This document shows, piece after piece, positions 21,397-63,084 of a stretch of 64,000 nt of DNA (the stretch's first letter is position 1; each line of letters starts with the position of its first letter). A program made the translations under genes and the position numbers. The DNA is taken from NCBI GenBank assembly GCA_030647355.1, contig JAUSIS010000006.1:26221-90220 (forward strand). Direction: 5' to 3'. The stretch comes from a bacterium (lineage in GTDB: Bacteria; Patescibacteriota; UBA1384; VFKW01). A model generated the notes under the pieces. The model was not told where the DNA came from, ran no database searches, and saw nothing but the letters and a program-made list of their open reading frames with translations.

Positions 21397-21470
21397 TCGG
21401 GGCAGGCAGACTTGAACTGCCGACCTCTGGACCCCCAGCCCAGCGCACTAGCCAACTGTGCTATGCCCCG
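21397..21470 (-). tRNA. tRNA-Pro (anticodon GGG)
   Basis: Manual cloverleaf on the minus strand: acceptor CGGGGCA/TGCCCCG, D stem GCAC/GTGC, anticodon stem CTGGG/TCCAG, loop CUGGGGG, T stem GGCAG/CTGCC, T loop TTCAAGT. 74 nt, no encoded CCA. Confidence 0.8.
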
Positions 21471-24874: not shown

Positions 24875-24946
24875 GCCGCCTTAGCTCAGTGGTAGAGCAA
24901 CACTTTTGTAAAGTGAAGGTCCCGAGTCCGAATCTCGGAGGCGGCT
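24875..24946 (+). tRNA. tRNA-Thr (anticodon UGU). T-loop is unusual (TCCGAAT, C at position 55).
   Basis: Manual cloverleaf: acceptor GCCGCCT/AGGCGGC, D stem GCTC/GAGC, anticodon loop UUUGUAA, T stem CCGAG/CTCGG. Confidence 0.7.
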
Positions 24947-24962
24947 CTGAAAGGTGAGGGAT

Positions 24963-25001
24963 AAAGTGAAGGTCCCGAGTTCGAACCCCGGAGGCGGCTC
25001 T
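24963..25001 (+). pseudogene. 3' fragment (anticodon 3' strand, variable and T arms, acceptor 3' strand) of a second tRNA-Thr copy, with canonical TTCGAAC T-loop
   Basis: AAAGTGAAGGTCCCGAGTTCGAACCCCGGAGGCGGCTCT, preceded by GGTGAGGG, the inverted partner of the CCCTCACC that follows the 5' fragment. Confidence 0.7.
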
Positions 25002-25169
25002 GGTGAGGGGTAAATAGTAGATCGTAGGTTCAAATATTTCCATTGTCTTTGCTGATGAGATTATAGGGTTCAAGTCGCTTCTTTCGGCTTAAAATCGTAA
25101 ATTGAAGCCAACAGCGAACCAATTAACTGAGTATTGTTGTATGTTCGCTATTGGCAGTAGCTTAAGATA

Positions 25170-25253
25170 GCCGGGGTGGCGGAGCGGTCAATCGCACCTG
25201 ACTGTAAATCAGGCGGCCTAGTGTCTACGGGAGTTCGAATCTCTCCCCCGGCA
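25170..25253 (+). tRNA. tRNA-Tyr (anticodon GUA), long variable arm
   Basis: Acceptor GCCGGGG/CCCCGGC, D stem GGCG/TCGC, anticodon stem CCTGA/TCAGG, loop CUGUAAA, long variable arm, T loop TTCGAAT, discriminator A. Confidence 0.8.
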
Positions 25254-25295
25254 CCGGAAGTGAGTTGCAGCTTATACTCTAACTCATTGATTTTT

Positions 25296-25368
25296 GCCGA
25301 TGTAGCTCAGTTGGTAGAGCAACTCCATGGTAAGGAGTAGGTCACCGGTTCAAATCCGGTCATCGGCT
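25296..25368 (+). tRNA. tRNA-Thr (anticodon GGU)
   Basis: Acceptor GCCGATG/CATCGGC, D stem GCTC/GAGC, anticodon stem ACTCC/GGAGT, loop AUGGUAA, T stem ACCGG/CCGGT, T loop TTCAAAT. Confidence 0.8.
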
Positions 25369-25436
25369 CAAAGTTATTGACATAACTTTACTAAAACACC
25401 AGAGTTAATGATGATTGAGGAGAATAATGGCTAAAA

Positions 25437-25591
25437 AAGAAAAAAGACAATTAATTACCTTGGCCTGTAGTAAGTGTCACGCAAGAAATTATCACACAGA
25501 AAAGAGCGTCTTGAATACCGTAGAGAGATTAGAAGTGAGTAAGTATTGCAGTAAGTGCCGTAGTCATGCGATGCATAAAGAGGCTAAGTAG
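25437..25591 (+). CDS. rpmG: 50S ribosomal protein L33
   Basis: 51-aa ORF missing from the supplied track (MAKKEKRQLITLACSKCHARNYHTEKS...HAMHKEAK). C4 zinc-ribbon form of bL33. RBS GAGGAGAATA. Classical position immediately upstream of tRNA-Trp. Confidence 0.75.
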
Positions 25592-25598
25592 GAGCAAT

Positions 25599-25673
25599 GG
25601 GGGCATAGTACAACGGTTAGTATGGCGGTCTCCAAAACCGCAGATTGAGGTTCGATTCCTCATGCCCCTGCCA
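25599..25673 (+). tRNA. tRNA-Trp (anticodon CCA), 3' CCA encoded
   Basis: Acceptor GGGGGCA/TGCCCCT (G1-U72), anticodon stem GCGGT/ACCGC, loop CUCCAAA, T stem TGAGG/CCTCA, T loop TTCGATT, then G + CCA. Confidence 0.75.
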
Positions 25674-32856: not shown

Positions 32857-33172
32857 GTGGCAAGAGATATAGGGCAAAGGCCTTGTTCTCTGGTTGCTTA
32901 AAACCCCTCACCCTTTAAGCAAAGGATGAGGGATAATAAGGAGGTTCCCAGCTCTTTCTGAGCTTGTCAATATCTGTGTGTTGTTGGGACATTATGGCGA
33001 TATTAGCAGATAAGGATGATGAGTTGAGAAAGGGCTGGGTAGGTCGGTAACCGACAACGGTATTTTCATTCGTTTATTTGCAGCCAGAAATGGGAAAATG
33101 TCAAATGACAAATTTCCAATGTCAAATAATTAACCCGCCGTCGCTGAAGCTATGGCGGGCGAAGGAGAAAAA

Positions 33173-33752: not shown

Positions 33753-33769
33753 GTGTAGGGGAGGGGATT

Positions 33770-34110
33770 GCTTTGTCGCTTCGCTCCTCGCAATGACAGA
33801 GAACTGCTGTTCGCAGTGACACGGAAAGTGGAGAAGATTGCCGCGCTTCGCTCGCAATGACAGGAAAGTAAGATTGCCGCGCTACGCTCGCAATGACAGA
33901 AGGGAGATTGCTTCGGACGACACTCGCAATGACAAAGGAAGCTTCTCGCAATGACAAAGGAGAGATTGCTTCGGACGACGCTCGCAATGACACGGAAAGT
34001 GGAGAAGATTGCCGCGCTGCGCTCGTAATGACATAAGCACACTCGCGATGTTCGTCAGAAAGATTGCTTCGTCGCTACGCTCCTCGCAATGACACGGAAA
34101 AAACGCTGGT
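33770..34110. repeat. Cluster of ~7 hairpin repeat units (GATTGC-N12-17-GCAATGACA), the last one a long perfect palindrome
   Basis: Repeated GATTGCCGCGCT(T/A)CGCTCGCAATGACA and GATTGCTTCGGACGAC(A/G)CTCGCAATGACA units separated by 6-12 nt. 34067-34130 forms a ~28-bp inverted repeat. Confidence 0.85.
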
Positions 34111-34148
34111 CATTGCGAGCGAACAGCGAAGCAATCTATAATGGAAAT

Positions 34149-34445
34149 ATGAAAGATAAAAATTATTACGTATATTTTATGATGAATTTCAGTAATACGG
34201 TTATTTATGTGGGAGTAACTAATGATTTAGCGAGAAGAGTTTACGAGCACAAAAATAAGCTTATTGATGGGTTTACTAAAAAATATAATGTAAATAAACT
34301 TGTGTATTATGAAGAGTATGATGATCCGCTGATCGCAATCGCCAGAGAAAAACAGATAAAAGCTGGATCGAGGGATAAAAAGATGAGGTTGATTGCGAAA
34401 GATAATCCAAGGTTTGAAGATTTGTACGATGGTTTGTTTGGTTGA
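34149..34445 (+). CDS. GIY-YIG domain nuclease family protein (~98 aa)
   Basis: YYVYFMMNFSNTVIYVGVTNDLARRVYEHK is a canonical GIY-YIG core. The ORF opens at 34089 inside the repeat; the Met at 34149 is the likely start. Flanked on both sides by the hairpin repeats. Confidence 0.8.
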   Translation: MKDKNYYVYFMMNFSNTVIYVGVTNDLARRVYEHKNKLIDGFTKKYNVNKLVYYEEYDDPLIAIAREKQIKAGSRDKKMRLIAKDNPRFEDLYDGLFG

Positions 34446-34446
34446 G

Positions 34447-34605
34447 AAAGAAGATTGCCGCGCTTCGCTCGCAATGACAGAGGGGAGATTGCTTCGGACG
34501 ACACTCGCAATGACAAAGGAAGCTTCTCGCAATGACAAAGGAGAGATTGCTTCGGACGACACTCGCAATGACAGAAATAGTGCTTGCGATGACGAAGGAA
34601 AGGTA
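34447..34605. repeat. Second cluster of GATTGC..GCAATGACA hairpin repeats (4-5 units)
   Basis: Same units as 33770-34110, starting immediately after the GIY-YIG stop codon. Confidence 0.85.
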
Positions 34606-35465: not shown

Positions 35466-35590
35466 AGGTTACTTCTCGACTTTGCTCAAAGAATAATGCC
35501 AGGCAGTAAGAAATAAACTGGGACAGGGAAAGATTGCCACGCTACGCTCGCAATGACACAGAAATAGTACTCGCAATGACAAGGAGGGGA
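35466..35590. repeat. Composite intergenic repeat: ACTTCTCGAC.. motif + GCAGTAAGAAATAAACTG motif + two GATTGC..GCAATGACA hairpin units
   Basis: Each module recurs elsewhere in the window (31140-31300, 49424-49460, 33770-34110). Confidence 0.7.
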
Positions 35591-38919: not shown

Positions 38920-39110
38920 AGATTGCTTCGTCGCTACGCTCCTCGCAATGACACAGGAAAGTAAGATTGCCGCGCTACGCTCGCAATGACGAAGGAAGCT
39001 CCTCGCAATGACACAGGAAAGTAAGATTGCCGCGCTACGCTCGCAATGACAGGAAAGTAAGATTGCCACGCTTCGCTCGCAATGACACAGGAATGAGCTC
39101 GCAACGACAA
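38920..39110. repeat. Tandem array of ~36-nt GATTGC..GCAATGACA(GGAAAGTAA) hairpin repeats (4-5 units)
   Basis: GATTGCCGCGCTACGCTCGCAATGACAGGAAAGTAA repeated head-to-tail with minor variants. Same family as 33770-34605 and 35530-35590. Confidence 0.85.
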
Positions 39111-39138
39111 GGAAGGGGTTATATTAGGGAGATAGAAT

Positions 39139-48857: not shown

Positions 48858-48870
48858 GTAATTACGCGGT

Positions 48871-48965
48871 CTTATCCTCTTCGGGGAGCGTTACGCTTCC
48901 TCGGCTTGAGGCCGATGAGCGCTGCACTACGCTTAACTCCCCTTAGAAGACAAGACCGCGTTATA
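48871..48965. repeat. Repeat family F2, copy 1 (structured ~75-nt element)
   Basis: CGCGGTCTT..CTTCGGGGAGCGTTACGCTTCC-[hairpin CTCGGCTTGAGGCCGATGAG]-CGCTGCACTACGCTTAACTCCCC..AAGACCGCG. Paralogues at 54047 and 61125. Confidence 0.8.
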
Positions 48966-50900: not shown

Positions 50901-50962
50901 ATTTCTAGGGCATTGATTTGTAAGTTTGGATGTTATAACATATAGTAATGTTTAGGAGGAAA

Positions 50963-53248
50963 ATGTCTAAATCCTTGGTTATAGTCGAAAGTCCGGCTAA
51001 AGCAAAGACAATTGAGAAATACTTAGGGAGCGGCTATAAAGTGCTGGCTTCTTTTGGTCATGTCAGGGATCTGCCTAAGAGTAAGTTGGGTGTTGATGTT
51101 AAGAAGAATTTTGAGCCAACATATATTGTGCCAACTAAAGCCAAGAAGGTATTGGCGAGTTTGAAAAGCGAGGCGGAAAAATCGGAAAAAATTTATCTGG
51201 CAACAGACTTTGACCGGGAAGGCGAAGCGATTGCTTGGCATATAATGCAAGCCACCGGCTCGCAAACTCAAAGCTCAATCCGCCAGCTGGCGGACAAAAC
51301 TCAAAAATATGGGAGGGTAACTTTCCATGAGATTACAAAGGAGGCAATTGTGCAAGCGTTTGAGCACCCACGCGAGATTGATATGGATTTAGTGGACGCT
51401 CAACAAGCCCGCAGAGTGCTTGATCGGCTCGTTGGCTATAAATTGAGCCCATTTCTTTGGAGAAAGGTGTATACGGGGCTCTCTGCGGGCAGAGTGCAGT
51501 CTGTAGCAGTGCGTTTGGTGGTAGATAGGGAGAGGGAAATAGAAGCTTTTAAGGTGCGGGAGTATTGGACTATTGAAGCGATTTTTTCCAAGAAACCGGA
51601 CAAGATTAAATTTGGCGCAACTTTAACTAAAATAGACGACAAACCTTTCAAGGAGGTGGATCAGAAGAAATTGGCGGAAGATCTGGTTAAGGATATTGAA
51701 GGGGGCAAATATAGCATTCTAGATATACAGAAAGCTGCTAAGACGAGAAGCCCAGCGCCGCCGTTTTCTACTTCAACATTACAACAGGAAGCAAATAGAA
51801 AGTTGCGTTTTTCAGCTAAGCAAACCATGACTTTAGCCCAGCATCTGTATGAGGGTGTAGACCTTGGAAGCGAGGGGTCTGCCGGATTGATTACGTATAT
51901 GAGAACGGATTCATATAATCTAGCCGAGAGCGCAATTCGTGAAGCTCGTCAGGTAATAGGTAAGGAGTTTGGTAAGGAATATGTGCCGCAGTCATCCAGA
52001 TTATATAAAACAAAAGCAAAGGGTGCTCAAGAAGCACATGAGGCGATTAGGCCTACTTTATTTAGCAGGACTCCGGACAGTGTGAGGAAATTTTTAGATA
52101 GTAGTCATTACAAACTTTATAAATTAATTTGGGAACGGGCGATTGCGTCCCAGATGGCAGATGCCCAAGTTGAAGAGACGGTAGCACAGATTGAGTCAAA
52201 AGGGGCTAGTAAGGTGTATGTCTTTACAGCCAAAGGAGCTATTGTCACTTTTGCCGGATTTTTAAAGGTGCATGAGGAAGGCAGGGATGAGATAGAAGAG
52301 GATGGCCTGTCTTTACTGCCTGATTTGGAGGTAGGAGAATCAGTGCATTTGGAAAATGTCGATGGAAGACAGCATTTTACTCAGCCACCGGGGCGATATA
52401 CGGAAGCTACTTTGGTGAAAGAGTTGGAGAAGAGGGGAATCGGCAGACCGTCAACTTATGCGCCTATTATGAGTACTATTGTTGATCGAGGTTATGTCCA
52501 AAAGTTAGAGGGCAGGTTTCATCCGCAGGATGTGGGACTTGTGGTTACAGATTTACTGACCGAGCATTTCCCGGCTATTGTTGACTATCAGTTTACCGCT
52601 AAAATGGAGGAAGAACTTGATGATATTGCAGAGGGTAAGCTGAAATGGCAGCCGGTGGTCAAAGAATTTTATGAACCATTGGCAAAAACTCTTGATGAAA
52701 AAATGGAGACAGTTGAGAAAAAGGATATAACCGAGGAAAAGACTGATGAAAAATGTCCTGAATGTAAGAAGGATTTGGTTATAAAACTTGGGCGTTTTGG
52801 GAAGTTTTATGCCTGTTCAGGTTACCCAGAATGTGAATATACACGGCCATATCTGGAGAACGAAGAGGGCGAAGCAATGTCGGCAAAAGAGGTTAAGGAG
52901 CTGACTGATGAAAAATGTCCAAAATGCGGGGCTCAGTTAGCGGTAAAACAGGGGAGATTTGGCAAGTTTTTAGGATGCAGTGAATATCCCAAGTGTCACT
53001 TTACTAAACAGATTGGAGCAGGGGAGCCAGTTAAATGTACAGAATGCGCCGGAGAGATAGTTATGAAGCGCACCAGGAGAGGGAAGCCATTTTGGGGGTG
53101 CTCAAACTATCCAAAATGCACACTAGCCTTCTGGAACGAACCTGTTGATAAAAGATGTCCAAAATGCAAGGCGATTATGGTAAAATCCGGGAAGGATAAG
53201 GTTAAATGCAGTAAGTGCGAGTATGAAGAGACTGCAAATAGCAGTTAG
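50963..53248 (+). CDS. topA: DNA topoisomerase I with four C-terminal zinc ribbons
   Basis: TOPRIM (LVIVESPAKAKTI, DFDREGEAIAW), Tyr-containing domain III, four CxxC..CxxC ribbons at the C-terminus. Start at the ATG at 50963 behind AGGAGGA. Carries the 41-nt palindromic insert at 51262-51305 in frame. Confidence 0.9.
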   Translation: MSKSLVIVESPAKAKTIEKYLGSGYKVLASFGHVRDLPKSKLGVDVKKNFEPTYIVPTKAKKVLASLKSEAEKSEKIYLATDFDREGEAIAWHIMQATGSQTQSSIRQLADKTQKYGRVTFHEITKEAIVQAFEHPREIDMDLVDAQQARRVLDRLVGYKLSPFLWRKVYTGLSAGRVQSVAVRLVVDREREIEAFKVREYWTIEAIFSKKPDKIKFGATLTKIDDKPFKEVDQKKLAEDLVKDIEGGKYSILDIQKAAKTRSPAPPFSTSTLQQEANRKLRFSAKQTMTLAQHLYEGVDLGSEGSAGLITYMRTDSYNLAESAIREARQVIGKEFGKEYVPQSSRLYKTKAKGAQEAHEAIRPTLFSRTPDSVRKFLDSSHYKLYKLIWERAIASQMADAQVEETVAQIESKGASKVYVFTAKGAIVTFAGFLKVHEEGRDEIEEDGLSLLPDLEVGESVHLENVDGRQHFTQPPGRYTEATLVKELEKRGIGRPSTYAPIMSTIVDRGYVQKLEGRFHPQDVGLVVTDLLTEHFPAIVDYQFTAKMEEELDDIAEGKLKWQPVVKEFYEPLAKTLDEKMETVEKKDITEEKTDEKCPECKKDLVIKLGRFGKFYACSGYPECEYTRPYLENEEGEAMSAKEVKELTDEKCPKCGAQLAVKQGRFGKFLGCSEYPKCHFTKQIGAGEPVKCTECAGEIVMKRTRRGKPFWGCSNYPKCTLAFWNEPVDKRCPKCKAIMVKSGKDKVKCSKCEYEETANSS

Positions 53249-53255
53249 ATACCCT

Positions 53256-53366
53256 TCTTTTAAGGCACGTGTTCGTCCGCTCCAGCGGCGGACGCCACTC
53301 TCTCTCGACTAGTGACCCGCATCTGCGGGACCAAGCTCACTGCGTCTGCGAGAGGTCTTAAAGAAG
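53256..53366. repeat. Repeat family F1, copy a (structured ~100-nt element)
   Basis: CACGTGTTC-[GTCCGCTCCAGCGGCGGAC]-GCCACTCTCTCTCGAC-[..CCCGCATCTGCGGG..]CCAAGCTCACTGCGTCTGCGAGAGGTC, flanked by the inverted repeats TTCTTTTAAG/CTTAAAGAAG. Confidence 0.8.
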
Positions 53367-53410
53367 AATATCTAACTGCTAATAAGGTGAAAAAAGAAGG
53401 AAGAGAAAAG

Positions 53411-54046
53411 ATGGCGGGGAGTATTCCTAAATCAGTACGAGATTTAATTGAAGAATTTGGTAAGCTGCCTGGGATAGGTCCAAAAACAGCTAGCCGGCTA
53501 ACTTTCTATTTATTAACAAAACCTGAGGAGGACGTGGAACGGTTGGCGAAATCGGTTGACGGTCTTAAGAAGAATCTGATTATTTGCTCTGAATGTTATA
53601 ATATCGCCGAAAGTGATCCATGCTCTATTTGTGGCGATCAAGCAAGAGAGAAAGAAAAGGTATGCGTAGTAGAGGAACCCTTGGATGTAGTGGCGATAGA
53701 GAAAACGGGGTTTGATGGCAGATATCATGTTTTGGGCGGGGTGATCTCTCCGATAAACGGAATTGGTCCGGAGAACCTTCGAATGGCAGAATTATTCAAT
53801 CGTATAAAAGGCAAGGGTGTGAAAGAGGTTATTTTGGCGACCGATCCTTCCTTAGAAGGTGAGGCCACCGCTATGTATATAAGCAACTATGTTGCTAAAT
53901 TCAAATCTCAATCCGCCAGCTGGCGGACAAATCTCAAAAATTTAAAAGTTACTAGAATTGCCCGCGGTTTACCTGTGGGAGGGGATTTGGAATATGCAGA
54001 TGAAATGACTTTGACGAGGGCATTGGAGGGAAGGAAAGAGTACTGA
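53411..54046 (+). CDS. recR: Recombination protein RecR
   Basis: HhH (LPGIGPKTASRL), C4 zinc finger (CSECYN..CSIC), Toprim domain, C-terminal GLPVGGDLEYAD. The annotated ORF start at 53312 only translates the F1 repeat; the Met at 53411 is the real start. Carries the second copy of the 41-nt insert (53903-53946). Confidence 0.85.
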   Translation: MAGSIPKSVRDLIEEFGKLPGIGPKTASRLTFYLLTKPEEDVERLAKSVDGLKKNLIICSECYNIAESDPCSICGDQAREKEKVCVVEEPLDVVAIEKTGFDGRYHVLGGVISPINGIGPENLRMAELFNRIKGKGVKEVILATDPSLEGEATAMYISNYVAKFKSQSASWRTNLKNLKVTRIARGLPVGGDLEYADEMTLTRALEGRKEY

Positions 54047-54150
54047 TTATGGGGGGAACATTTATTCGGAGAGCGTTTCGCTTCCCGATACAGTTGTGTC
54101 GGGAGCACTGCACTTCGCTTAACTCTCCTCATAAAAATTCCCCTCGTTAT
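54047..54150. repeat. Repeat family F2, copy 2
   Basis: GGGGGGAA..TTCGGAGAGCGTTTCGCTTCC-[CGATACAGTTGTGTCGGG]-AGCACTGCACTTCGCTTAACTCTCC..TTCCCCTC. Confidence 0.8.
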
Positions 54151-54298: not shown

Positions 54299-54508
54299 AT
54301 GAATGAGATTCCAGTATTTTATTGTCTAGAGTGTGGATATGTTGGAAATGCTCCGGGAATATGTCCTCAATGCAGTGCGACATTAGTAGCTGATGATATG
54401 AATTTGCCCAATGAAAAAGAAGAGGATGGCAAGTATGATGAGGCTGTATTAGAAGATGAGGAAGAGGATGATGAGTTGCCGGAAGATAAGTTTGAGGATG
54501 AAGAGTAG
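54299..54508 (+). CDS. Small zinc-ribbon protein with a poly-acidic C-terminal tail
   Basis: CLECGY..CPQC ribbon followed by EEDGKYDEAVLEDEEEDDELPEDKFEDEE. RBS GGAGGAGAATA. Confidence 0.5.
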   Translation: MNEIPVFYCLECGYVGNAPGICPQCSATLVADDMNLPNEKEEDGKYDEAVLEDEEEDDELPEDKFEDEE

Positions 54509-54516
54509 GTTAGGTA

Positions 54517-54637
54517 GGCTGTTTGTCATCATGACACGCGTTCATCCGTTCCAGCGACGGGATGCCGCTCTATCTCGGCAGTTGACCCTTCGGAACCAAG
54601 CTCAACTGCCTCCGATAGGTCACTATGACAAACAGCC
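54517..54637. repeat. Repeat family F1, copy b, flanked by the 13-bp inverted repeat GGCTGTTTGTCAT/ATGACAAACAGCC
   Basis: CACGCGTTC-[ATCCGTTCCAGCGACGGGAT]-GCCGCTCTATCTCGGC-[..]CCAAGCTCAACTGCCTCCGATAGGTC. Confidence 0.8.
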
Positions 54638-54717
54638 TTCCCAAAGATGGAGAAGTAGCATTTTGGTCTGCGAGAGACTTTTTAGTCTGACAAGTCATTT
54701 CTTAGAGAGAAGAGGCA

Positions 54718-59643: not shown

Positions 59644-60621
59644 GTGGATATACAAAAAAGGAAAGAAGATCTTAGAGAGCTTTTGAAGATTGGTCCAAAA
59701 GAAGCAAGAATTAATGAGATTCAGGAGAAAATGAGCGATCCTTCTTTTTGGTCTGATCGGGAAAAATCTCTGGTATTAACTCAAGAGCTGACGACTCTGC
59801 AGGGTATTATTAAAAAATTTGATGGTGCCAATGACGAGAAATCTATTGAGGGATTAGAAACACAAGCTTTACTTTCCGGAGAATATGATTTGAATAACGC
59901 GATTATTTCTTTAAGCGCAGGGGCGGGCGGGACAGAAGCGCAGGACTGGACTGAGATGCTATTTCGTATGTATGGCCGCTGGGCGGAAAGAAAAGAGTTT
60001 AAGTTTGAGGTACTTAGTATGTCAGAAGGCGAAGAAGCAGGATTGAAGAGCGCTACAGCAAGAGTAATGGGGCCATTTGCGTATGGTTATTTATCTTGTG
60101 AAGCAGGGGTTCATCGTCTTGTCCGGTTATCGCCGTTTGATGCCGATCATGCTCGGCATACTTCTTTTGCACTTTTGGAAGTGACTCCGGAAATTGATAA
60201 AGCAGAGGTAGAAATTGATCCAAAAGATTTAAAGATTGATGTATTTCGATCAGGTGGGCATGGCGGTCAAAGTGTTAACACAACTGATTCAGCGGTGCGA
60301 ATAACGCATTTGCCGACTGGTATTGTGGTTACTTGCCAGAATGAGCGCTCGCAATTGCAAAACAGAGAGATGGCGCTAAAGATATTAAAGTCTCGGCTTA
60401 TGATTAAGGAAAAGGCGCAAAAGAAGGCGCAGGAAAGGAAGATTAAGGGGGAGCTGGAATCGGCCGAGTGGGGGAGTCAGATAAGATCGTATGTTTTGCA
60501 CCCTTATCAAATGGTTAAAGATCACCGCACAGAATATGAAACAGCTAATACGCAGGCAGTTCTTGGTGGAGATATTGATGGGTTTATTGAAGCATGTTTA
60601 AAGAAGAGAGCTCTAGAGTAA
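59644..60621 (+). CDS. prfB: Peptide chain release factor 2 (short N-terminus, GTG start, no +1 frameshift found)
   Basis: SPF motif (LVRLSPFDA), GGQ motif (SGGHGGQSVN). Alignment to E. coli RF2 begins after the position of its frameshift site. RBS TAGGAG 6 nt before the GTG. Confidence 0.8.
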   Translation: MDIQKRKEDLRELLKIGPKEARINEIQEKMSDPSFWSDREKSLVLTQELTTLQGIIKKFDGANDEKSIEGLETQALLSGEYDLNNAIISLSAGAGGTEAQDWTEMLFRMYGRWAERKEFKFEVLSMSEGEEAGLKSATARVMGPFAYGYLSCEAGVHRLVRLSPFDADHARHTSFALLEVTPEIDKAEVEIDPKDLKIDVFRSGGHGGQSVNTTDSAVRITHLPTGIVVTCQNERSQLQNREMALKILKSRLMIKEKAQKKAQERKIKGELESAEWGSQIRSYVLHPYQMVKDHRTEYETANTQAVLGGDIDGFIEACLKKRALE

Positions 60622-60633
60622 TCGCAATATCTT

Positions 60634-60769
60634 CGCCTTTCGAAGCACGCGTTCAATTTTTCCAGCGAAAATTGCCGCTCTATCTCGGCTCGCAACCCAG
60701 CCCTTTTTACAAAAGAGCTGGGACCAAGCTTGCTTCACCTCCGATAGGCATCTCAATGGAAGATATTGC
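60634..60769. repeat. Repeat family F1, copy c, flanked by the 11-bp inverted repeat GCAATATCTTC/GAAGATATTGC
   Basis: CACGCGTTC-[AATTTTTCCAGCGAAAATT]-GCCGCTCTATCTCGGC-[..CCCAGCCC.TTT.AGAGCTGGG..]ACCAAGCTTGCTTCACCTCCGATAGGC. Confidence 0.8.
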
Positions 60770-61124: not shown

Positions 61125-61240
61125 CTCGGCGATGAGGGTATAAGCTATTCGGGAAGCGTTTCTCCGCCATCCGCCAATCGGCGGAGGCGGATGCACTACG
61201 CTTAACTTCCCTCATAGCACATACCCTCATCTTAATTGCT
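61125..61240. repeat. Repeat family F2, copy 3, closed by the perfect 11-bp helix GATGAGGGTAT/ATACCCTCATC
   Basis: ..TTCGGGAAGCGTTTCTCCGCCATCCGCCAATCGGCGGAGGCGGATGCACTACGCTTAACTTCCCTCATAGCAC.. Confidence 0.8.
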
Positions 61241-61987: not shown

Positions 61988-62866
61988 ATGCCAAAGAAGA
62001 AACAGGTTAAAGAGGAGCAGGACAATCCTGTCGTAGAAGTTGAAGAAGAAGCATTAGTTGATTCGGAAGAGGACAGAGAAGAAGAGAAAAACTTGGGAAT
62101 AGATGACACTGACGAAAATTTACAGGAGGAGACTCAAATAAAAAAAGTAGTAGGGGATGTAGCGGGACTACCTTCTGAGGTGGCTGCTATTAATACTGAT
62201 AATGAGACTGCCCGAGAGGCAACTAAAAAAGTTCAAGGGACAACGAATAAAAATAAATCGAGAAGCAAAAGATACATTACCGCTGTTAGTAAGGTTGATA
62301 AAAATAAGAAATACACGATTGACGAAGCTATAGAATTAGCAAAAGAAACTTCGAGTACGAAGTTTGAAGGATCGGTTGAGTTGCATGTAAAACTATCCGA
62401 GAAAAAAAGCAAGAAAAAAGGAACTGATGAATTGGCTCGAGGGATTTTGCATCTACCGCATGGAATGGGGAAAGAGCTGAAAGTTATTGTCTTAGACGAA
62501 AACAAGATCGAAGAAATTGCTAAAACAAAGAAAGTTGATTTTGATGTGGCGATAGCTACTCCCGCTTTGATGCCTAAAATGGGTAAGATCGCCAAGATTT
62601 TAGGTCCAAAAGGAAAAATGCCAAATCCAAAGACCGGGACTGTGAGTGATGATCCCGAGAAAGTAAAAGAAGAAATTAAGAATGGTAAGGTAGAATATAA
62701 GGTAGATGCTAATAATGTTGTTCACCAGATGATCGGAAAGACCAGTTGGGATAGTATAAAACTCAAAGAGAATTTTCAAGTAGTGATGCAGGCGTTGCCT
62801 AAAAATAGAGTGCAATCTGTCGCTCTTTCGACGACGATGGGACCGGGGATTAAAGTAGAGTACTAA
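61988..62866 (+). CDS. rplA: 50S ribosomal protein L1 with ~90-aa acidic/lysine-rich N-terminal extension
   Basis: From residue ~95: KRYITAVSKVDKNKKYTIDEAIELAKE..FEGSVELHVKL..PHG...KVIV is the uL1 core. The N-terminus is EEE/KK low complexity. Confidence 0.8.
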   Translation: MPKKKQVKEEQDNPVVEVEEEALVDSEEDREEEKNLGIDDTDENLQEETQIKKVVGDVAGLPSEVAAINTDNETAREATKKVQGTTNKNKSRSKRYITAVSKVDKNKKYTIDEAIELAKETSSTKFEGSVELHVKLSEKKSKKKGTDELARGILHLPHGMGKELKVIVLDENKIEEIAKTKKVDFDVAIATPALMPKMGKIAKILGPKGKMPNPKTGTVSDDPEKVKEEIKNGKVEYKVDANNVVHQMIGKTSWDSIKLKENFQVVMQALPKNRVQSVALSTTMGPGIKVEY

Positions 62867-62867
62867 T

Positions 62868-63000
62868 TCAAGAGTATATCTTTCAAAGACACGCGTTCGT
62901 CCGCTCCTGCGGCGGATGCCGCTCGCCCTCGGATTCCTTTCGCCTTCGGCGAACCAAGCAAGAAATCCTGCGAGAGGTCTTCTCAAAACATACTCTTGAA
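62868..63000. repeat. Repeat family F1, copy d, flanked by the inverted repeat TTCAAGAGTAT/ATACTCTTGAA
   Basis: ACACGCGTTC-[GTCCGCTCCTGCGGCGGAT]-GCCGCTCGCCCTCGGA-[TTCCTTTCGCCTTCGGCGAA]-CCAAGCAAGAAATCCTGCGAGAGGTC. Confidence 0.8.
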
Positions 63001-63084
63001 TTCAAAGAGAGAGTGGAAAAGGGTAACAAAAAAATAGTTTGTAGGTACTTTAAGTAGTAGTTGGTTTTTCCATTAGAGTTTTTG

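What the first reader, a model, noticed from the sequence alone, without database searches (positions are those of the whole stretch)
53903..53946. Second copy of the in-frame palindromic mini-element, inside recR
Listed separately so it can be checked on its own. The hairpin CCGCCAGCTGGCGG sits in the C-terminal Toprim region of RecR and adds ~12 residues (KSQSASWRTNLKN) relative to E. coli RecR, while the downstream GLPVGGDLEYAD motif is intact. As RNA, the same sequence could form a stable stem within the recR mRNA.
Basis: seen in the sequence. Interest (0 to 1): 0.6.

Follow-up and report, generated by a model that had tools for sequence, protein, structure and literature searches.

The report
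Tiny hairpin repeat inserted in-frame in recR
The recR gene carries an in-frame copy of a very small DNA repeat (a 16-base hairpin flanked by A-rich 7-base repeats) that also sits inside many other essential genes of candidate-phyla-radiation (CPR) bacteria; it resembles the palindromic elements of Rickettsia but is far smaller and appears to be undescribed.

Summary
A perfect 16-nt palindrome, TCCGCCAGCTGGCGGA (53912-53927), flanked by the direct repeat CAAATCTCAA, lies in frame in an otherwise intact recR. It adds exactly 12 residues (KSQSASWRTNLK, 53903-53938) relative to a solved RecR structure.

A 45-nt stretch is 93% identical to a copy in topA 2.6 kb upstream, but the two copies are read in different frames. 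The similarity is therefore at the DNA level, not the protein level.

The exact core occurs in 19 stretches of MAG contigs, mostly CPR/Patescibacteria by record label, and in at least 120 metagenome contigs. It was not found in viral contigs.

- About half of 146 copies lie inside long ORFs of diverse housekeeping genes.
- These copies use all three frames, and the A-rich strand is almost always the coding strand (74 sense, 6 antisense).
- Intergenic copies show no orientation bias.
- The flanks are tandem heptads (CAAAnnT).
- Paralogous and orthologous sites exist with heptads only, with heptads plus hairpin, or with neither.
- RecR, TopA and GatA orthologues were hit independently in the same loops, in other frames.

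Best reading: this is a tolerated passenger copy of a very small, non-autonomous, DNA-level repeat module. It is analogous to Rickettsia RPEs and cyanobacterial SDRs. How it spreads is unknown.

The parts
53411..54046 (+). recR coding sequence (211 aa plus stop), the host gene
   Evidence: ORF. Pfam RecR_HhH, RecR_ZnF, Toprim_4 and RecR_C. The start MAGSIPKSV agrees with homologues. Best PDB match is RecR 3VDP, E = 2e-61.
53903..53938 (+). 36 nt (12 codons, KSQSASWRTNLK) that are extra relative to a solved RecR
   Evidence: Single 12-residue gap in the HMMER alignment to 3VDP. In the AlphaFold2 model it forms the end of helix 148-167 plus the following loop, with pLDDT about 75.
53912..53927 (.). 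Perfect 16-nt palindrome TCCGCCAGCTGGCGGA, the core of the element
   Evidence: RNA hairpin of -10.8 kcal/mol, z = -4.2.
53902..53911 (+). Left flank CAAATCTCAA (one heptad CAAATCT plus CAA), direct repeat of the right flank
   Evidence: Read from the sequence. Family-wide, the two flanks of a copy match each other far more often than flanks from different copies: 32 perfect matches at the 5 variable positions against 2.7 expected.
53928..53937 (+). Right flank CAAATCTCAA, direct repeat of the left flank
53897..53941 (+). 45-nt stretch shared with the topA copy (93% identity)
   Evidence: the repeat finder family D16; alignment A1.
51264..51308 (+). Sister copy inside topA (palindrome at 51279-51294), read in another frame (..SSIRQLADKTQK..)
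   Evidence: It lies in the loop after the EGEAIAWH helix of the TopA Toprim domain. That loop is 9 aa shorter in the closest relative and 11 aa shorter in the modal CPR TopA.
50948..53248 (+). topA coding sequence, host of the sister copy
   Evidence: Pfam Toprim, Topoisom_bac and Zn_ribbon_Top1.
61170..61185 (.). Hairpin with the same stem and a different loop (TCCGCC-AATC-GGCGGA), nested inside CCGCCA..GGCGG in an intergenic ~100-nt repeat
   Evidence: It has the same stem as the element, but whether it belongs to the same family is inferred, not shown.

Best explanation
The recR segment is one copy of a very small, non-coding, DNA-level repeat module. The module is a GC-rich 16-nt hairpin (stem TCCGCC/GGCGGA) embedded in A-rich tandem heptads (CAAAnnT). 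It is dispersed through genomes of Patescibacteria (CPR).

The module has no gene of its own, so it must be propagated in trans or by recombination. I infer that the hairpin is added to, or exchanged between, A-rich heptad tracts. Two routes seem possible: short-patch copying (gene conversion or template switching that uses the heptads as microhomology), or an unidentified enzyme that recognises the hairpin.

Inside genes, only certain copies survive: those that keep the frame, lie in surface loops, and have the A-rich strand as the coding strand, which yields hydrophilic, stop-free peptides in all three frames. In RecR the copy adds 12 residues between the last Toprim helix and the strand leading to the C-terminal motif. 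It is most likely a tolerated passenger with no function of its own.

Shown: the repeat family, the DNA-level rather than protein-level identity, in-frame occupancy of many housekeeping genes, the heptad association, filled and empty sites, and recurrent independent hits in the same loops. Inferred: mobility in the strict sense, the mechanism of spread, and neutrality for RecR.
For: 1. **DNA-level identity.** Two copies 2.6 kb apart are 93% identical over 45 nt but translated in different frames.
2. **Wide distribution.** The exact 25-mer occurs in 19 stretches of species-representative genomes. By my estimate about 0.001 would be expected by chance. The records are labelled Gottesman-, Roizman-, Wildermuth- and Saccharibacteria and other Patescibacteria MAGs.
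3. **ORF occupancy and orientation.** Of 146 copies, 74 lie inside long ORFs in sense orientation and 6 in antisense. By the stricter criteria (75 sense, 4 antisense), the sense copies use all three frames: PPAGG 34, SASWRT 21, IRQLAD 20. The 54 intergenic copies that have an upstream neighbouring ORF are oriented 27 with it and 27 against it. The bias therefore arises by selection within genes and not at insertion.
4. **Hosts.** The hosts are unrelated housekeeping proteins: 122 Pfam families in 69 ORFs, including MnmA, SecA, SMC, UppS, TsaD, TrmD, LepA, UvrA and aminoacyl-tRNA synthetases.
5. **Heptad flanks.** The flanks are tandem heptads, and the two flanks of one copy match each other.
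6. **Filled and empty sites.**
   - A paralogous intergenic repeat in L014 exists with and without the hairpin, differing by 19 nt, that is, the hairpin plus CAA.
   - The same slot is empty in other copies, or holds a different GC-rich hairpin.
   - RecR of L142 and GatA P0242 carry pure heptad arrays in the very loops where the window RecR and L013 GatA carry heptads plus hairpin.
   - GatA P0320 and P0310 are 90% identical and differ by the hairpin, a net 12 nt.
7. **Independent hits in the same loops.**
   - RecR P0022 and P0063 have NPPAGG in the same loop as the window copy.
   - RecR P0020 and P0037 have PPAGG in another Toprim loop.
   - TopA P0229 has SVSWRT in the same loop as the window topA copy.
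   - Decayed versions (PPVGG, PPTGG, PPKGG) also occur.
8. **Closest relative.** The closest syntenic relative (L140, gene order dprA-topA-recR) lacks the hairpin in both genes.
9. **Host gene intact.** recR is intact and the insert maps to a helix end and loop.
Against: - **No polymorphism seen.** No presence/absence polymorphism was found within one population. The nearest relatives of this genome are only about 77% identical, so the exact empty site in recR cannot be reconstructed.
- **No fixed unit.** Net length gains inside genes vary (12, 12, 12, 12, 15, 18, 27 and 36 nt). The one clean intergenic case is 19 nt. This argues against simple cut-and-paste transposition and leaves the mechanism open.
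- **No mobilising gene.** No transposase family recurs among 147 ORFs next to intergenic copies.
- **Odd population structure.** Exact 21-25-nt identity across deeply divergent CPR lineages, at low copy number per genome, is unusual for a decaying selfish repeat. It could instead point to a conserved protein-binding function.
- **Orientation bias not fully explained.** 30-43 of 72 in-ORF copies would remain stop-free if inverted, so stop codons alone do not explain the bias.
- **Sampling bias.** The search pattern required AA..CAA flanks, so flankless or antisense copies are under-sampled.
Confidence: 0.75

Rival explanations
1. The hairpin is a host-beneficial cis-acting DNA site, for example a binding or recognition site for a conserved CPR protein such as a DNA-uptake, recombination or nucleoid factor. 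Selection or biased uptake would keep its sequence identical across lineages, and genes merely tolerate it.
For: - The 21-25-nt core is identical across divergent CPR classes.
- The stem sequence TCCGCC/GGCGGA is kept while the loop varies (AGCT, AGCC, CAA, AGA, AAA, AACT, AATC).
- No transposase was found nearby.
- The window carries pilin-like genes (family D3). dprA lies next to topA-recR in the relative L140; in the window this adjacency was not examined.
Against: - Density is low: 2 copies in 64 kb here, and only 1-7 exact copies found per MAG.
- Orthologous copies decay (PPVGG, PPTGG, PPKGG, SVSWRT, NPPASG), so individual sites are not maintained.
- Known uptake sequences arise by substitution at much higher density, not by insertion (my own knowledge).
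Confidence: 0.12
2. The element acts at the RNA level. The stem in the mRNA would modulate translation, mRNA stability or processing of recR and topA, which would explain why it is nearly always in sense orientation inside genes.
For: - Stable hairpin, z about -4.
- 74 sense against 6 antisense copies inside ORFs.
- Stop codons alone do not account for the bias.
Against: - Intergenic copies show no orientation preference relative to neighbouring genes (27:27).
- The hosts are functionally unrelated.
- Copies decay in orthologues.
- Antisense peptides would be hydrophobic (Kyte-Doolittle hydropathy +0.59 against -0.97 for sense), which offers a protein-level reason for the bias.
- There is no Rfam match.
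- The element does not look like a terminator.
Confidence: 0.08
3. The 12 residues are an adaptive protein insertion in the Toprim domain, selected for a function in RecR and, in parallel, in TopA.
For: - Both window copies occupy the equivalent loop of two Toprim domains.
- The same loops carry inserts in many orthologues.
Against: - The two copies encode different peptides because they are read in different frames.
- Orthologues carry the same DNA in yet other frames (PPAGG, SVSWRT) or only heptad-coded low-complexity loops.
- The same DNA sits in more than 60 unrelated proteins.
- The AlphaFold2 model gives the segment only about 75 pLDDT, as a helix extension plus loop.
Confidence: 0.04
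4. The palindrome is an assembly or sequencing artefact, or it arose locally and independently by template switching (inverted duplication).
For: - Palindromes can be produced by chimeric reads.
- In one case (L142 against L143) the right half resembles the ancestral sequence.
Against: - The same 21-25-mer with similar flanks occurs in more than 140 contigs from many projects and record sources.
- It is always compatible with the host frame.
- Identical sequences arising de novo at so many sites is not credible.
Confidence: 0.01

Closest known systems
Rickettsia palindromic elements (RPEs; Ogata et al. 2000, as summarised in PMC10969869)
   Same: - Non-coding palindromic repeats inserted in frame into many unrelated housekeeping genes.
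- The host protein stays intact and gains a peptide that is probably surface-exposed.
- No transposase of their own, and the mobilisation mechanism is unknown.
   Different: - RPEs are about 100-150 bp, fall into about ten sequence families and are confined to Rickettsia.
- Each RPE family encodes one conserved peptide. Here the core is 16 nt (36-45 nt with flanks), is read in all three frames, is tied to tandem heptads, and occurs in CPR bacteria.
- No sequence relationship was tested or is expected.
Small dispersed repeats (SDR4-6) of Nostoc and other cyanobacteria (Elhai et al. 2008, Genome Res 18:1484; cited in PMC3116915 and PMC4390886; the paper itself was not held)
   Same: - Very small (21-27 nt) palindromic modules without coding capacity.
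- They insert precisely into short specific targets: SDR5 goes between nucleotides 3 and 4 of HIP1.
- By my recollection they are nested in other repeats, including heptamer tracts. Here the hairpin sits after CAA within CAAAnnT heptads, and different hairpins share the same slot.
   Different: - SDRs are, to my knowledge, mainly intergenic. Here about half of the sampled copies are inside ORFs.
- The organisms and sequences differ.
- The link between SDRs and heptamers rests on my memory, not on a text I could read.
REP / REPIN elements mobilised by RAYT (Y1 HUH) transposases (PMC3116915)
   Same: Short (about 20-40 nt) GC-rich hairpins dispersed in the genome and non-autonomous. Recognition of a conserved stem would fit a hairpin-binding HUH enzyme.
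   Different: - REPs are extragenic by definition, often occur as inverted doublets, and have a RAYT gene in the genome.
- Here the copies are single hairpins and half are intragenic.
- No RAYT or transposase was found in the DNA available, although whole genomes were not examined.
Mobile GC-rich palindromic clusters of yeast and fungal mitochondrial DNA, including optional in-frame clusters in var1 (my own knowledge, not checked in a text)
   Same: Short GC-rich hairpins in an AT-rich genome, flanked by A/T-rich repeats, occasionally in frame within a protein gene, and spreading by a conversion-like process.
   Different: They occur in organelles, are 30-50 bp with other sequences, and have no heptad arrays.
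Tandem heptanucleotide repeats of bacteria (cyanobacterial STRR, from my own knowledge; TAACTGA repeats, PMC4679880)
   Same: Period-7 tandem arrays scattered in genomes, sporadically distributed across phyla, sometimes inside ORFs and only in the orientation that avoids stop codons.
   Different: Those arrays are mostly intergenic and are not described as carriers of an embedded hairpin. The unit here is CAAAnnT.

Membership tests
Rickettsia palindromic elements (RPE) | In-frame insertion of a palindromic repeat into unrelated protein-coding genes | tested here: met
   74 of 146 copies lie inside long ORFs from 122 Pfam families, and the frame is preserved.
Rickettsia palindromic elements (RPE) | Length of about 100-150 bp, and one conserved encoded peptide per family | tested here: not met
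   Conserved length is about 36-45 nt. All three frames are used, giving the peptides PPAGG, SASWRT and IRQLAD.
Rickettsia palindromic elements (RPE) | Sequence membership in RPE-1 to RPE-10, and occurrence in Rickettsia | not tested
   No RPE sequences were available for comparison. Most hosts are labelled CPR/Patescibacteria MAGs, and a few carry other labels.
MITE (miniature inverted-repeat transposable element) | Terminal inverted repeats flanking an internal sequence, total length of about 50-500 bp | tested here: not met
   The only inverted repeat is the 8+8-nt palindrome itself, with nothing between the arms. The flanks are direct repeats, not inverted ones (inverted-repeat test at background level).
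MITE (miniature inverted-repeat transposable element) | Target-site duplication of fixed length | tested here: inconclusive
   The filled and empty pair in L014 differs by 19 nt, that is, 16 nt plus CAA, which is compatible with a 3-nt duplication. The apparent 10-nt direct repeat is explained by adjacent heptads. Gains inside ORFs vary from 12 to 36 nt.
MITE (miniature inverted-repeat transposable element) | A related autonomous IS with matching ends | tested here: inconclusive
   No transposase family recurs among 147 ORFs near intergenic copies, and the inverted pair in L014 encloses a non-transposase ORF. Whole genomes were not searched.
REP / REPIN with RAYT | Extragenic location | tested here: not met
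   About half of the copies are intragenic.
REP / REPIN with RAYT | A RAYT (Y1 transposase) gene in the same genome | not testable with these tools
   Only a 64-kb window and fragments of about 6 kb were available. None was seen.
Cyanobacterial small dispersed repeats (SDR) | Palindromic module under 30 nt, dispersed, inserted precisely into a short specific target or into other repeats | tested here: met
   16-nt palindrome placed after CAA of CAAAnnT heptads. The slot can be filled, empty, or filled by another hairpin.
Cyanobacterial small dispersed repeats (SDR) | Sequence identity to SDR1-8, and a cyanobacterial host | not tested
   The Elhai 2008 text was not held. Most hosts are labelled CPR.
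Intrinsic (Rho-independent) terminator | GC-rich stem-loop followed by a U/T run | tested here: not met
   The element is not reported by the terminator scan on either strand. The tails are CAAATCTC and TTGAGATT.
Known structured RNA families (Rfam 15) | Match to a covariance model at the gathering score or a low E-value | tested here: not met
   The window has only 5 tRNA matches at gathering score, and nothing lies at the element at E up to 5.
CRISPR repeat | Regularly spaced array of repeats separated by unique spacers | tested here: not met
   The window has two copies 2.6 kb apart, both inside genes. Copies elsewhere are solitary.

The most novel reading that the evidence does not exclude
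The 16-nt hairpin would be one of the smallest actively spreading DNA modules known. It would be written into A-rich heptad tracts across many CPR lineages by a conserved, still unidentified machinery. Candidates are a hairpin-specific HUH-type enzyme, or uptake of short DNA followed by oligonucleotide-like recombination. Together with other short repeats, it would continuously remodel surface loops of essential proteins in these reduced genomes.
Probability: 0.25. Interest if true: 0.85.

Novelty: new variant of a known kind. Interest (0 to 1): 0.62.

Why it matters
In-frame 'selfish' palindromes in essential genes have been a curiosity largely tied to Rickettsia. This finding shows a much smaller module doing the same thing across the candidate phyla radiation, a large and poorly understood part of the bacterial tree with tiny genomes.

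- **Mobility.** A 16-nt sequence that spreads without an obvious transposase bears on the question of the minimal unit of DNA mobility.
- **Protein evolution.** It bears on how protein loops in essential enzymes (RecR, TopA, GatA, SecA, SMC and others) acquire new sequence.
- **Annotation.** It explains part of the unexplained length variation and low-complexity K/N/S/Q loops in CPR proteins, which complicate alignment and structure prediction.
- **Population studies.** The exact core is also a simple marker for tracking insertion and loss in strain-resolved metagenomes.

Tried and rejected
1. **10-bp target-site duplication of a 16-nt transposon.** The copy-specific direct repeats are real, but their period of 26 nt would frameshift every intragenic copy. 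Adjacent identical heptads plus CAA explain them better.
2. **Fixed rule 'gain = 19 + 7k nt'.** This fits 12, 19 and 33 nt but fails for L013 against P0242 (+18) and for recR against 3VDP (+36).
3. **Orientation bias caused by the insertion mechanism (transcription- or replication-linked).** Rejected because intergenic copies are oriented 27:27 relative to neighbouring genes.
4. **Orientation bias caused by stop codons alone.** This is insufficient: 30-43 of 72 copies would stay open if inverted.
5. **Terminator, known RNA family, CRISPR repeat.** All negative.
6. **Phage origin.** There were no hits in viral contigs.
7. **L014 inverted pair as an IS.** The enclosed 335-aa ORF looks like a membrane or surface protein, not a transposase (my reading of the sequence, no domain search was run).
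8. **A recurrent transposase next to intergenic copies.** None was found.
9. **Source contig.** Looking up the source contig of the window RecR by exact protein failed: it is not on record.
10. **Literature.**
    - No paper contains the 14-mer.
    - A search combining 'palindromic element', 'in-frame', 'protein-coding genes' and 'Candidate Phyla Radiation' returned nothing on such elements in CPR, judging by the titles and abstracts listed.
    - The Elhai 2008 paper could not be read.
11. **Other hairpins in the same strict heptad context.** Only this palindrome was found, but the sample was selected for it.
Full report
**1. The observation**

Window positions 53912-53927 read TCCGCCAGCTGGCGGA, a perfect 16-nt palindrome. 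The direct repeat CAAATCTCAA flanks it on both sides (53902-53911 and 53928-53937).

The 14-mer with up to two mismatches occurs twice in the 64-kb window against 0.04 expected. A 39-mer spanning the element occurs twice, with up to three mismatches, against 0.00 expected. The second copy is at 51264-51308, inside topA. The two copies share 45 nt at 93% identity (family D16).

**2. The host gene is intact**

The recR ORF is best read from ATG 53411 to the stop at 54046, giving 211 aa. It matches RecR_HhH, RecR_ZnF, Toprim_4 (residues 83-162) and RecR_C (residues 186-209). It retains every column that is invariant among 27 relatives, including GLPVGGDLEYAD.

Against the solved RecR 3VDP (E = 2e-61), the only sizeable gap is 12 residues opposite KSQSASWRTNLK, which is 53903-53938. 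An AlphaFold2 model (mean pLDDT 82) places these residues at the end of helix 148-167 and in the following loop, before strand 179-184, with pLDDT about 75.

One qualification applies. This loop varies in length among CPR RecRs, so the excess over the nearest relatives (73-77% identity) is only 4-10 residues.

**3. The similarity is in the DNA, not the protein**

The same nucleotides are read as SSIRQLADKTQK in TopA and as SQSASWRTNLKN in RecR. Both copies sit in the equivalent loop of a Toprim domain: after the D-x-D/EGEA helix and before the next strand. Because the frames differ, this cannot be protein homology. I record it as an unexplained coincidence or a hot spot.

**4. A dispersed family**

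- The exact 25-mer CTCAATCCGCCAGCTGGCGGACAAA occurs in 19 stretches of the species-representative genome collection. From the collection size I estimate that about 0.001 would be expected by chance.
- The records are labelled Gottesmanbacteria, Roizmanbacteria, Wildermuthbacteria, Saccharibacteria and other Patescibacteria. A few MAGs are labelled Gammaproteobacteria, Bacteroidales or Bdellovibrionales; I did not verify these labels.
- No paper in the library contains the 14-mer. A search for in-frame palindromic elements in CPR returned nothing on such elements, judging by the titles and abstracts listed.
- There is no Rfam match, and the element does not look like a terminator.

**5. Where the copies lie**

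I pooled 146 copies.

- By the criteria, 74 lie inside long ORFs with the A-rich strand as the coding strand and 6 lie inside long ORFs in antisense.
- By the stricter criteria (75 sense, 4 antisense), the sense copies use all three frames: PPAGG 34, SASWRT 21, IRQLAD 20.
- The rest are intergenic or on short contigs.
- The hosts are unrelated housekeeping proteins: 122 Pfam families in 69 ORFs, including MnmA, SecA, SMC, UppS, TsaD, TrmD, LepA, UvrA, class I aminoacyl-tRNA synthetases and GatA.

The 54 intergenic copies that have an upstream neighbouring ORF show no orientation preference relative to it (27 same, 27 opposite). The sense bias therefore arises within genes, by selection, rather than at insertion.

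Stop codons explain only part of that bias. If inverted in place, 30-43 of 72 copies would remain open. However, the antisense peptides would be hydrophobic (mean Kyte-Doolittle hydropathy +0.59 against -0.97 for sense), which suits surface loops poorly.

One caveat: my search pattern required the AA..CAA flanks, so copies without flanks, or antisense copies with mutated flanks, are under-sampled. RecR P0037 loop 1, with G..TT flanks, is an example.

**6. Anatomy: a hairpin inside heptads**

Outside the palindrome, conservation extends about 15 nt on each side as AAAnnTC-type periodicity. The 10 nt to the left of the palindrome equal the 10 nt to the right far more often within a copy than between copies. 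At the five variable positions, 70 of 140 copies match at 4 or more positions against 16.5 expected, and 32 match perfectly against 2.7 expected.

I first read this as a target-site duplication. That cannot be right, because the 26-nt period would frameshift every intragenic copy. The flanks are instead tandem heptads, CAAAnnT. The 'direct repeat' consists of two adjacent, identical heptads with the hairpin placed after CAA.

Direct comparisons support this reading.

- **L014.** A paralogous intergenic repeat of about 110 nt occurs with and without the hairpin, differing by 19 nt, that is, 16 nt plus CAA.
- **Related contigs.** The same slot is empty in other copies, or holds a different GC-rich hairpin.
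- **RecR.** L142 carries the pure heptad array TCAAAAC TCAAATC TCAAAAT TCAAAAT in exactly the loop where the window has one heptad, the hairpin, then more heptads. The window is 12 nt longer.
- **GatA, first pair.** P0242 carries four perfect TCAAAAC heptads where L013 (82% identical) has CTCAA, the hairpin, and degenerate heptads. L013 is 18 nt longer.
- **GatA, second pair.** P0320 and P0310 are 90% identical and differ by the hairpin, with a net gain of 12 nt; 16 nt replace 4 nt.

Stem variants with other loops also occur: TCCGCC-AGCC-, -CAA-, -AGA-, -AAA-, -AACT- and -CGA-GGCGGA. One such variant is in the window at 61170-61185.

**7. Independent gains and decay**

- In RecR orthologues the palindrome occurs in the same loop as in the window but in the PPAGG frame (P0022, P0063).
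- It also occurs in another Toprim loop (P0020, P0037; a 12-nt net gain over P0030).
- Decayed forms occur as well: PPTGG, PPKGG, PPVGG and LPAGG.
- In TopA orthologues the same loop holds SVSWRT in P0229.
- Many other TopA orthologues hold heptad-coded loops of the NSKFKIQNSK type.
- The modal TopA loop is 11 aa shorter than in the window.
- The closest syntenic relative (L140, gene order dprA-topA-recR, TopA 77% identical) lacks the hairpin in both genes.
- GatA orthologues additionally carry other short, repeat-like inserts in the same permissive loops.

Together these results indicate repeated, lineage-specific gain followed by decay. This is the behaviour of a parasitic or neutral DNA module.

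**8. Mechanism, and its limits**

The module is too small to encode anything. No fixed insertion unit emerges: 19 nt in the one clean intergenic case, and 12, 12, 12, 12, 15, 18, 27 or 36 nt inside genes, where only multiples of three can survive. No transposase family recurs near intergenic copies, and the element is absent from viral contigs.

I therefore favour short-patch copying between A-rich heptad tracts, by gene conversion or template switching on heptad microhomology, possibly fed by DNA uptake. An alternative is an unidentified hairpin-specific enzyme. The conserved stem with a variable loop would suit sequence-specific recognition. Both mechanisms are inferences.

The near-perfect conservation of the core across deep CPR lineages at low copy number is not explained. 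It keeps alive the rival idea that the hairpin is a recognised cis-acting site.

**9. Comparison with known systems**

- **Rickettsia palindromic elements.** Functionally this is the closest analogue: in-frame, many housekeeping hosts, no transposase. This family fails the RPE criteria of size and of one peptide per family.
- **Cyanobacterial small dispersed repeats.** In size and in precise nesting within other short repeats, the element resembles these most (details of the 2008 paper are from my memory).
- **REP/REPIN.** It does not qualify, because it is not extragenic.
- **MITE.** It does not qualify, because there is no internal sequence between inverted repeats and no fixed target-site duplication.
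- **Terminator, CRISPR repeat, known RNA.** It is none of these.

I classify it as a new variant of a known kind.

**10. Verdict**

The finding is real and correctly interpreted. It is also more interesting than a single locus suggests. The recR insert is a tolerated in-frame copy of an apparently undescribed hairpin-in-heptads repeat family that populates essential genes across CPR bacteria.

My confidence that it is a dispersed DNA-level repeat with no dedicated function in RecR is about 0.75. My confidence in any specific mode of spread is much lower.

Noticed in passing
window 53240-53381, 54510-54644, 60620-60760, 62865-63002: Four copies of a ~140-nt family with the conserved core ACACGCGTTC-[hairpin]-GCCGCTCT.TCTCGGC ... 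GACCAAGC ... CCT.CGA.AGG. Each copy is closed by its own long inverted repeat. Two copies lie just upstream of recR and cysS. RNAalifold finds 32 pairs, 19 of them with compensatory changes among only 4 sequences, and there is no Rfam match. This is a candidate structured RNA or leader.
   Followed up: partly
window 48860-48960, 54050-54150 (immediately 3' of recR), 61125-61235: Three copies of a ~100-nt repeat: GGG..ATAA.CTATTCGGGGAGCGTTTCGCTTCC-[variable hairpin]-GAGCGCTGCACTACGCTTAACTCCCCTCATAA. The copy at 61160-61192 has a TCCGCCAATCGGCGGA hairpin nested inside CCGCCA..GGCGG.
   Followed up: partly
window 33765-34137, 34428-34582, 35507-35585, 38920-39136: Dense clusters of units about 36 nt long of the type AGATTGC(C/T)..CGCT(A/T)CGCTCGCAATGAC, in both orientations, in intergenic DNA around pilin-like genes (families D1, D2, D5 and I3-I7).
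   Followed up: no
window 33094-33160: An intergenic array of about five CAAAnnT-type heptads (AAATGTC and variants), followed by a GC-rich hairpin CCCGCC..GGCGGG, directly upstream of a pilin-like gene (ATG 33174, MRKKGFTLIELLVVI). The same heptad-plus-hairpin architecture therefore also occurs outside genes in this genome.
   Followed up: partly
window 35663, 39613, 40526, 41419, 42338 (82-nt repeats): Five paralogous N-terminal segments of type IV pilin-like genes (GFTLIELLVVI motif) within 7 kb (family D3).
   Followed up: no
L002 (minus strand, about 341) and L018 (minus strand, about 2214): A different GC-rich hairpin (CCTGCCCGCAATGCTTCGCATAGCGAGGCGGGCGGG) occupies the same slot between heptads that elsewhere holds the TCCGCC palindrome. 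This suggests several hairpin modules share one kind of target.
   Followed up: partly
GatA homologues P0241-P0360 (consensus positions ~37, ~270, ~335, ~455): CPR GatA proteins range from 433 to 543 aa because of short inserts in a few loops. Many have recurring motifs (..RKSA/..RRSA, NADLRGL, NPSTGSG) that look like translations of other short DNA repeats. In-frame repeat insertion may therefore be general in these genomes.
   Followed up: partly
window 24875-25670 and 21397-21470: A cluster of four tRNA genes on the plus strand, and one further tRNA gene on the minus strand.
   Followed up: no
window 54299-54508: A small ORF (69 aa) between recR and cysS with a CxxC...CxxC zinc-ribbon-like N-terminus and an acidic tail. 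Small ORFs lie at the equivalent place in L140 and L142.
   Followed up: no
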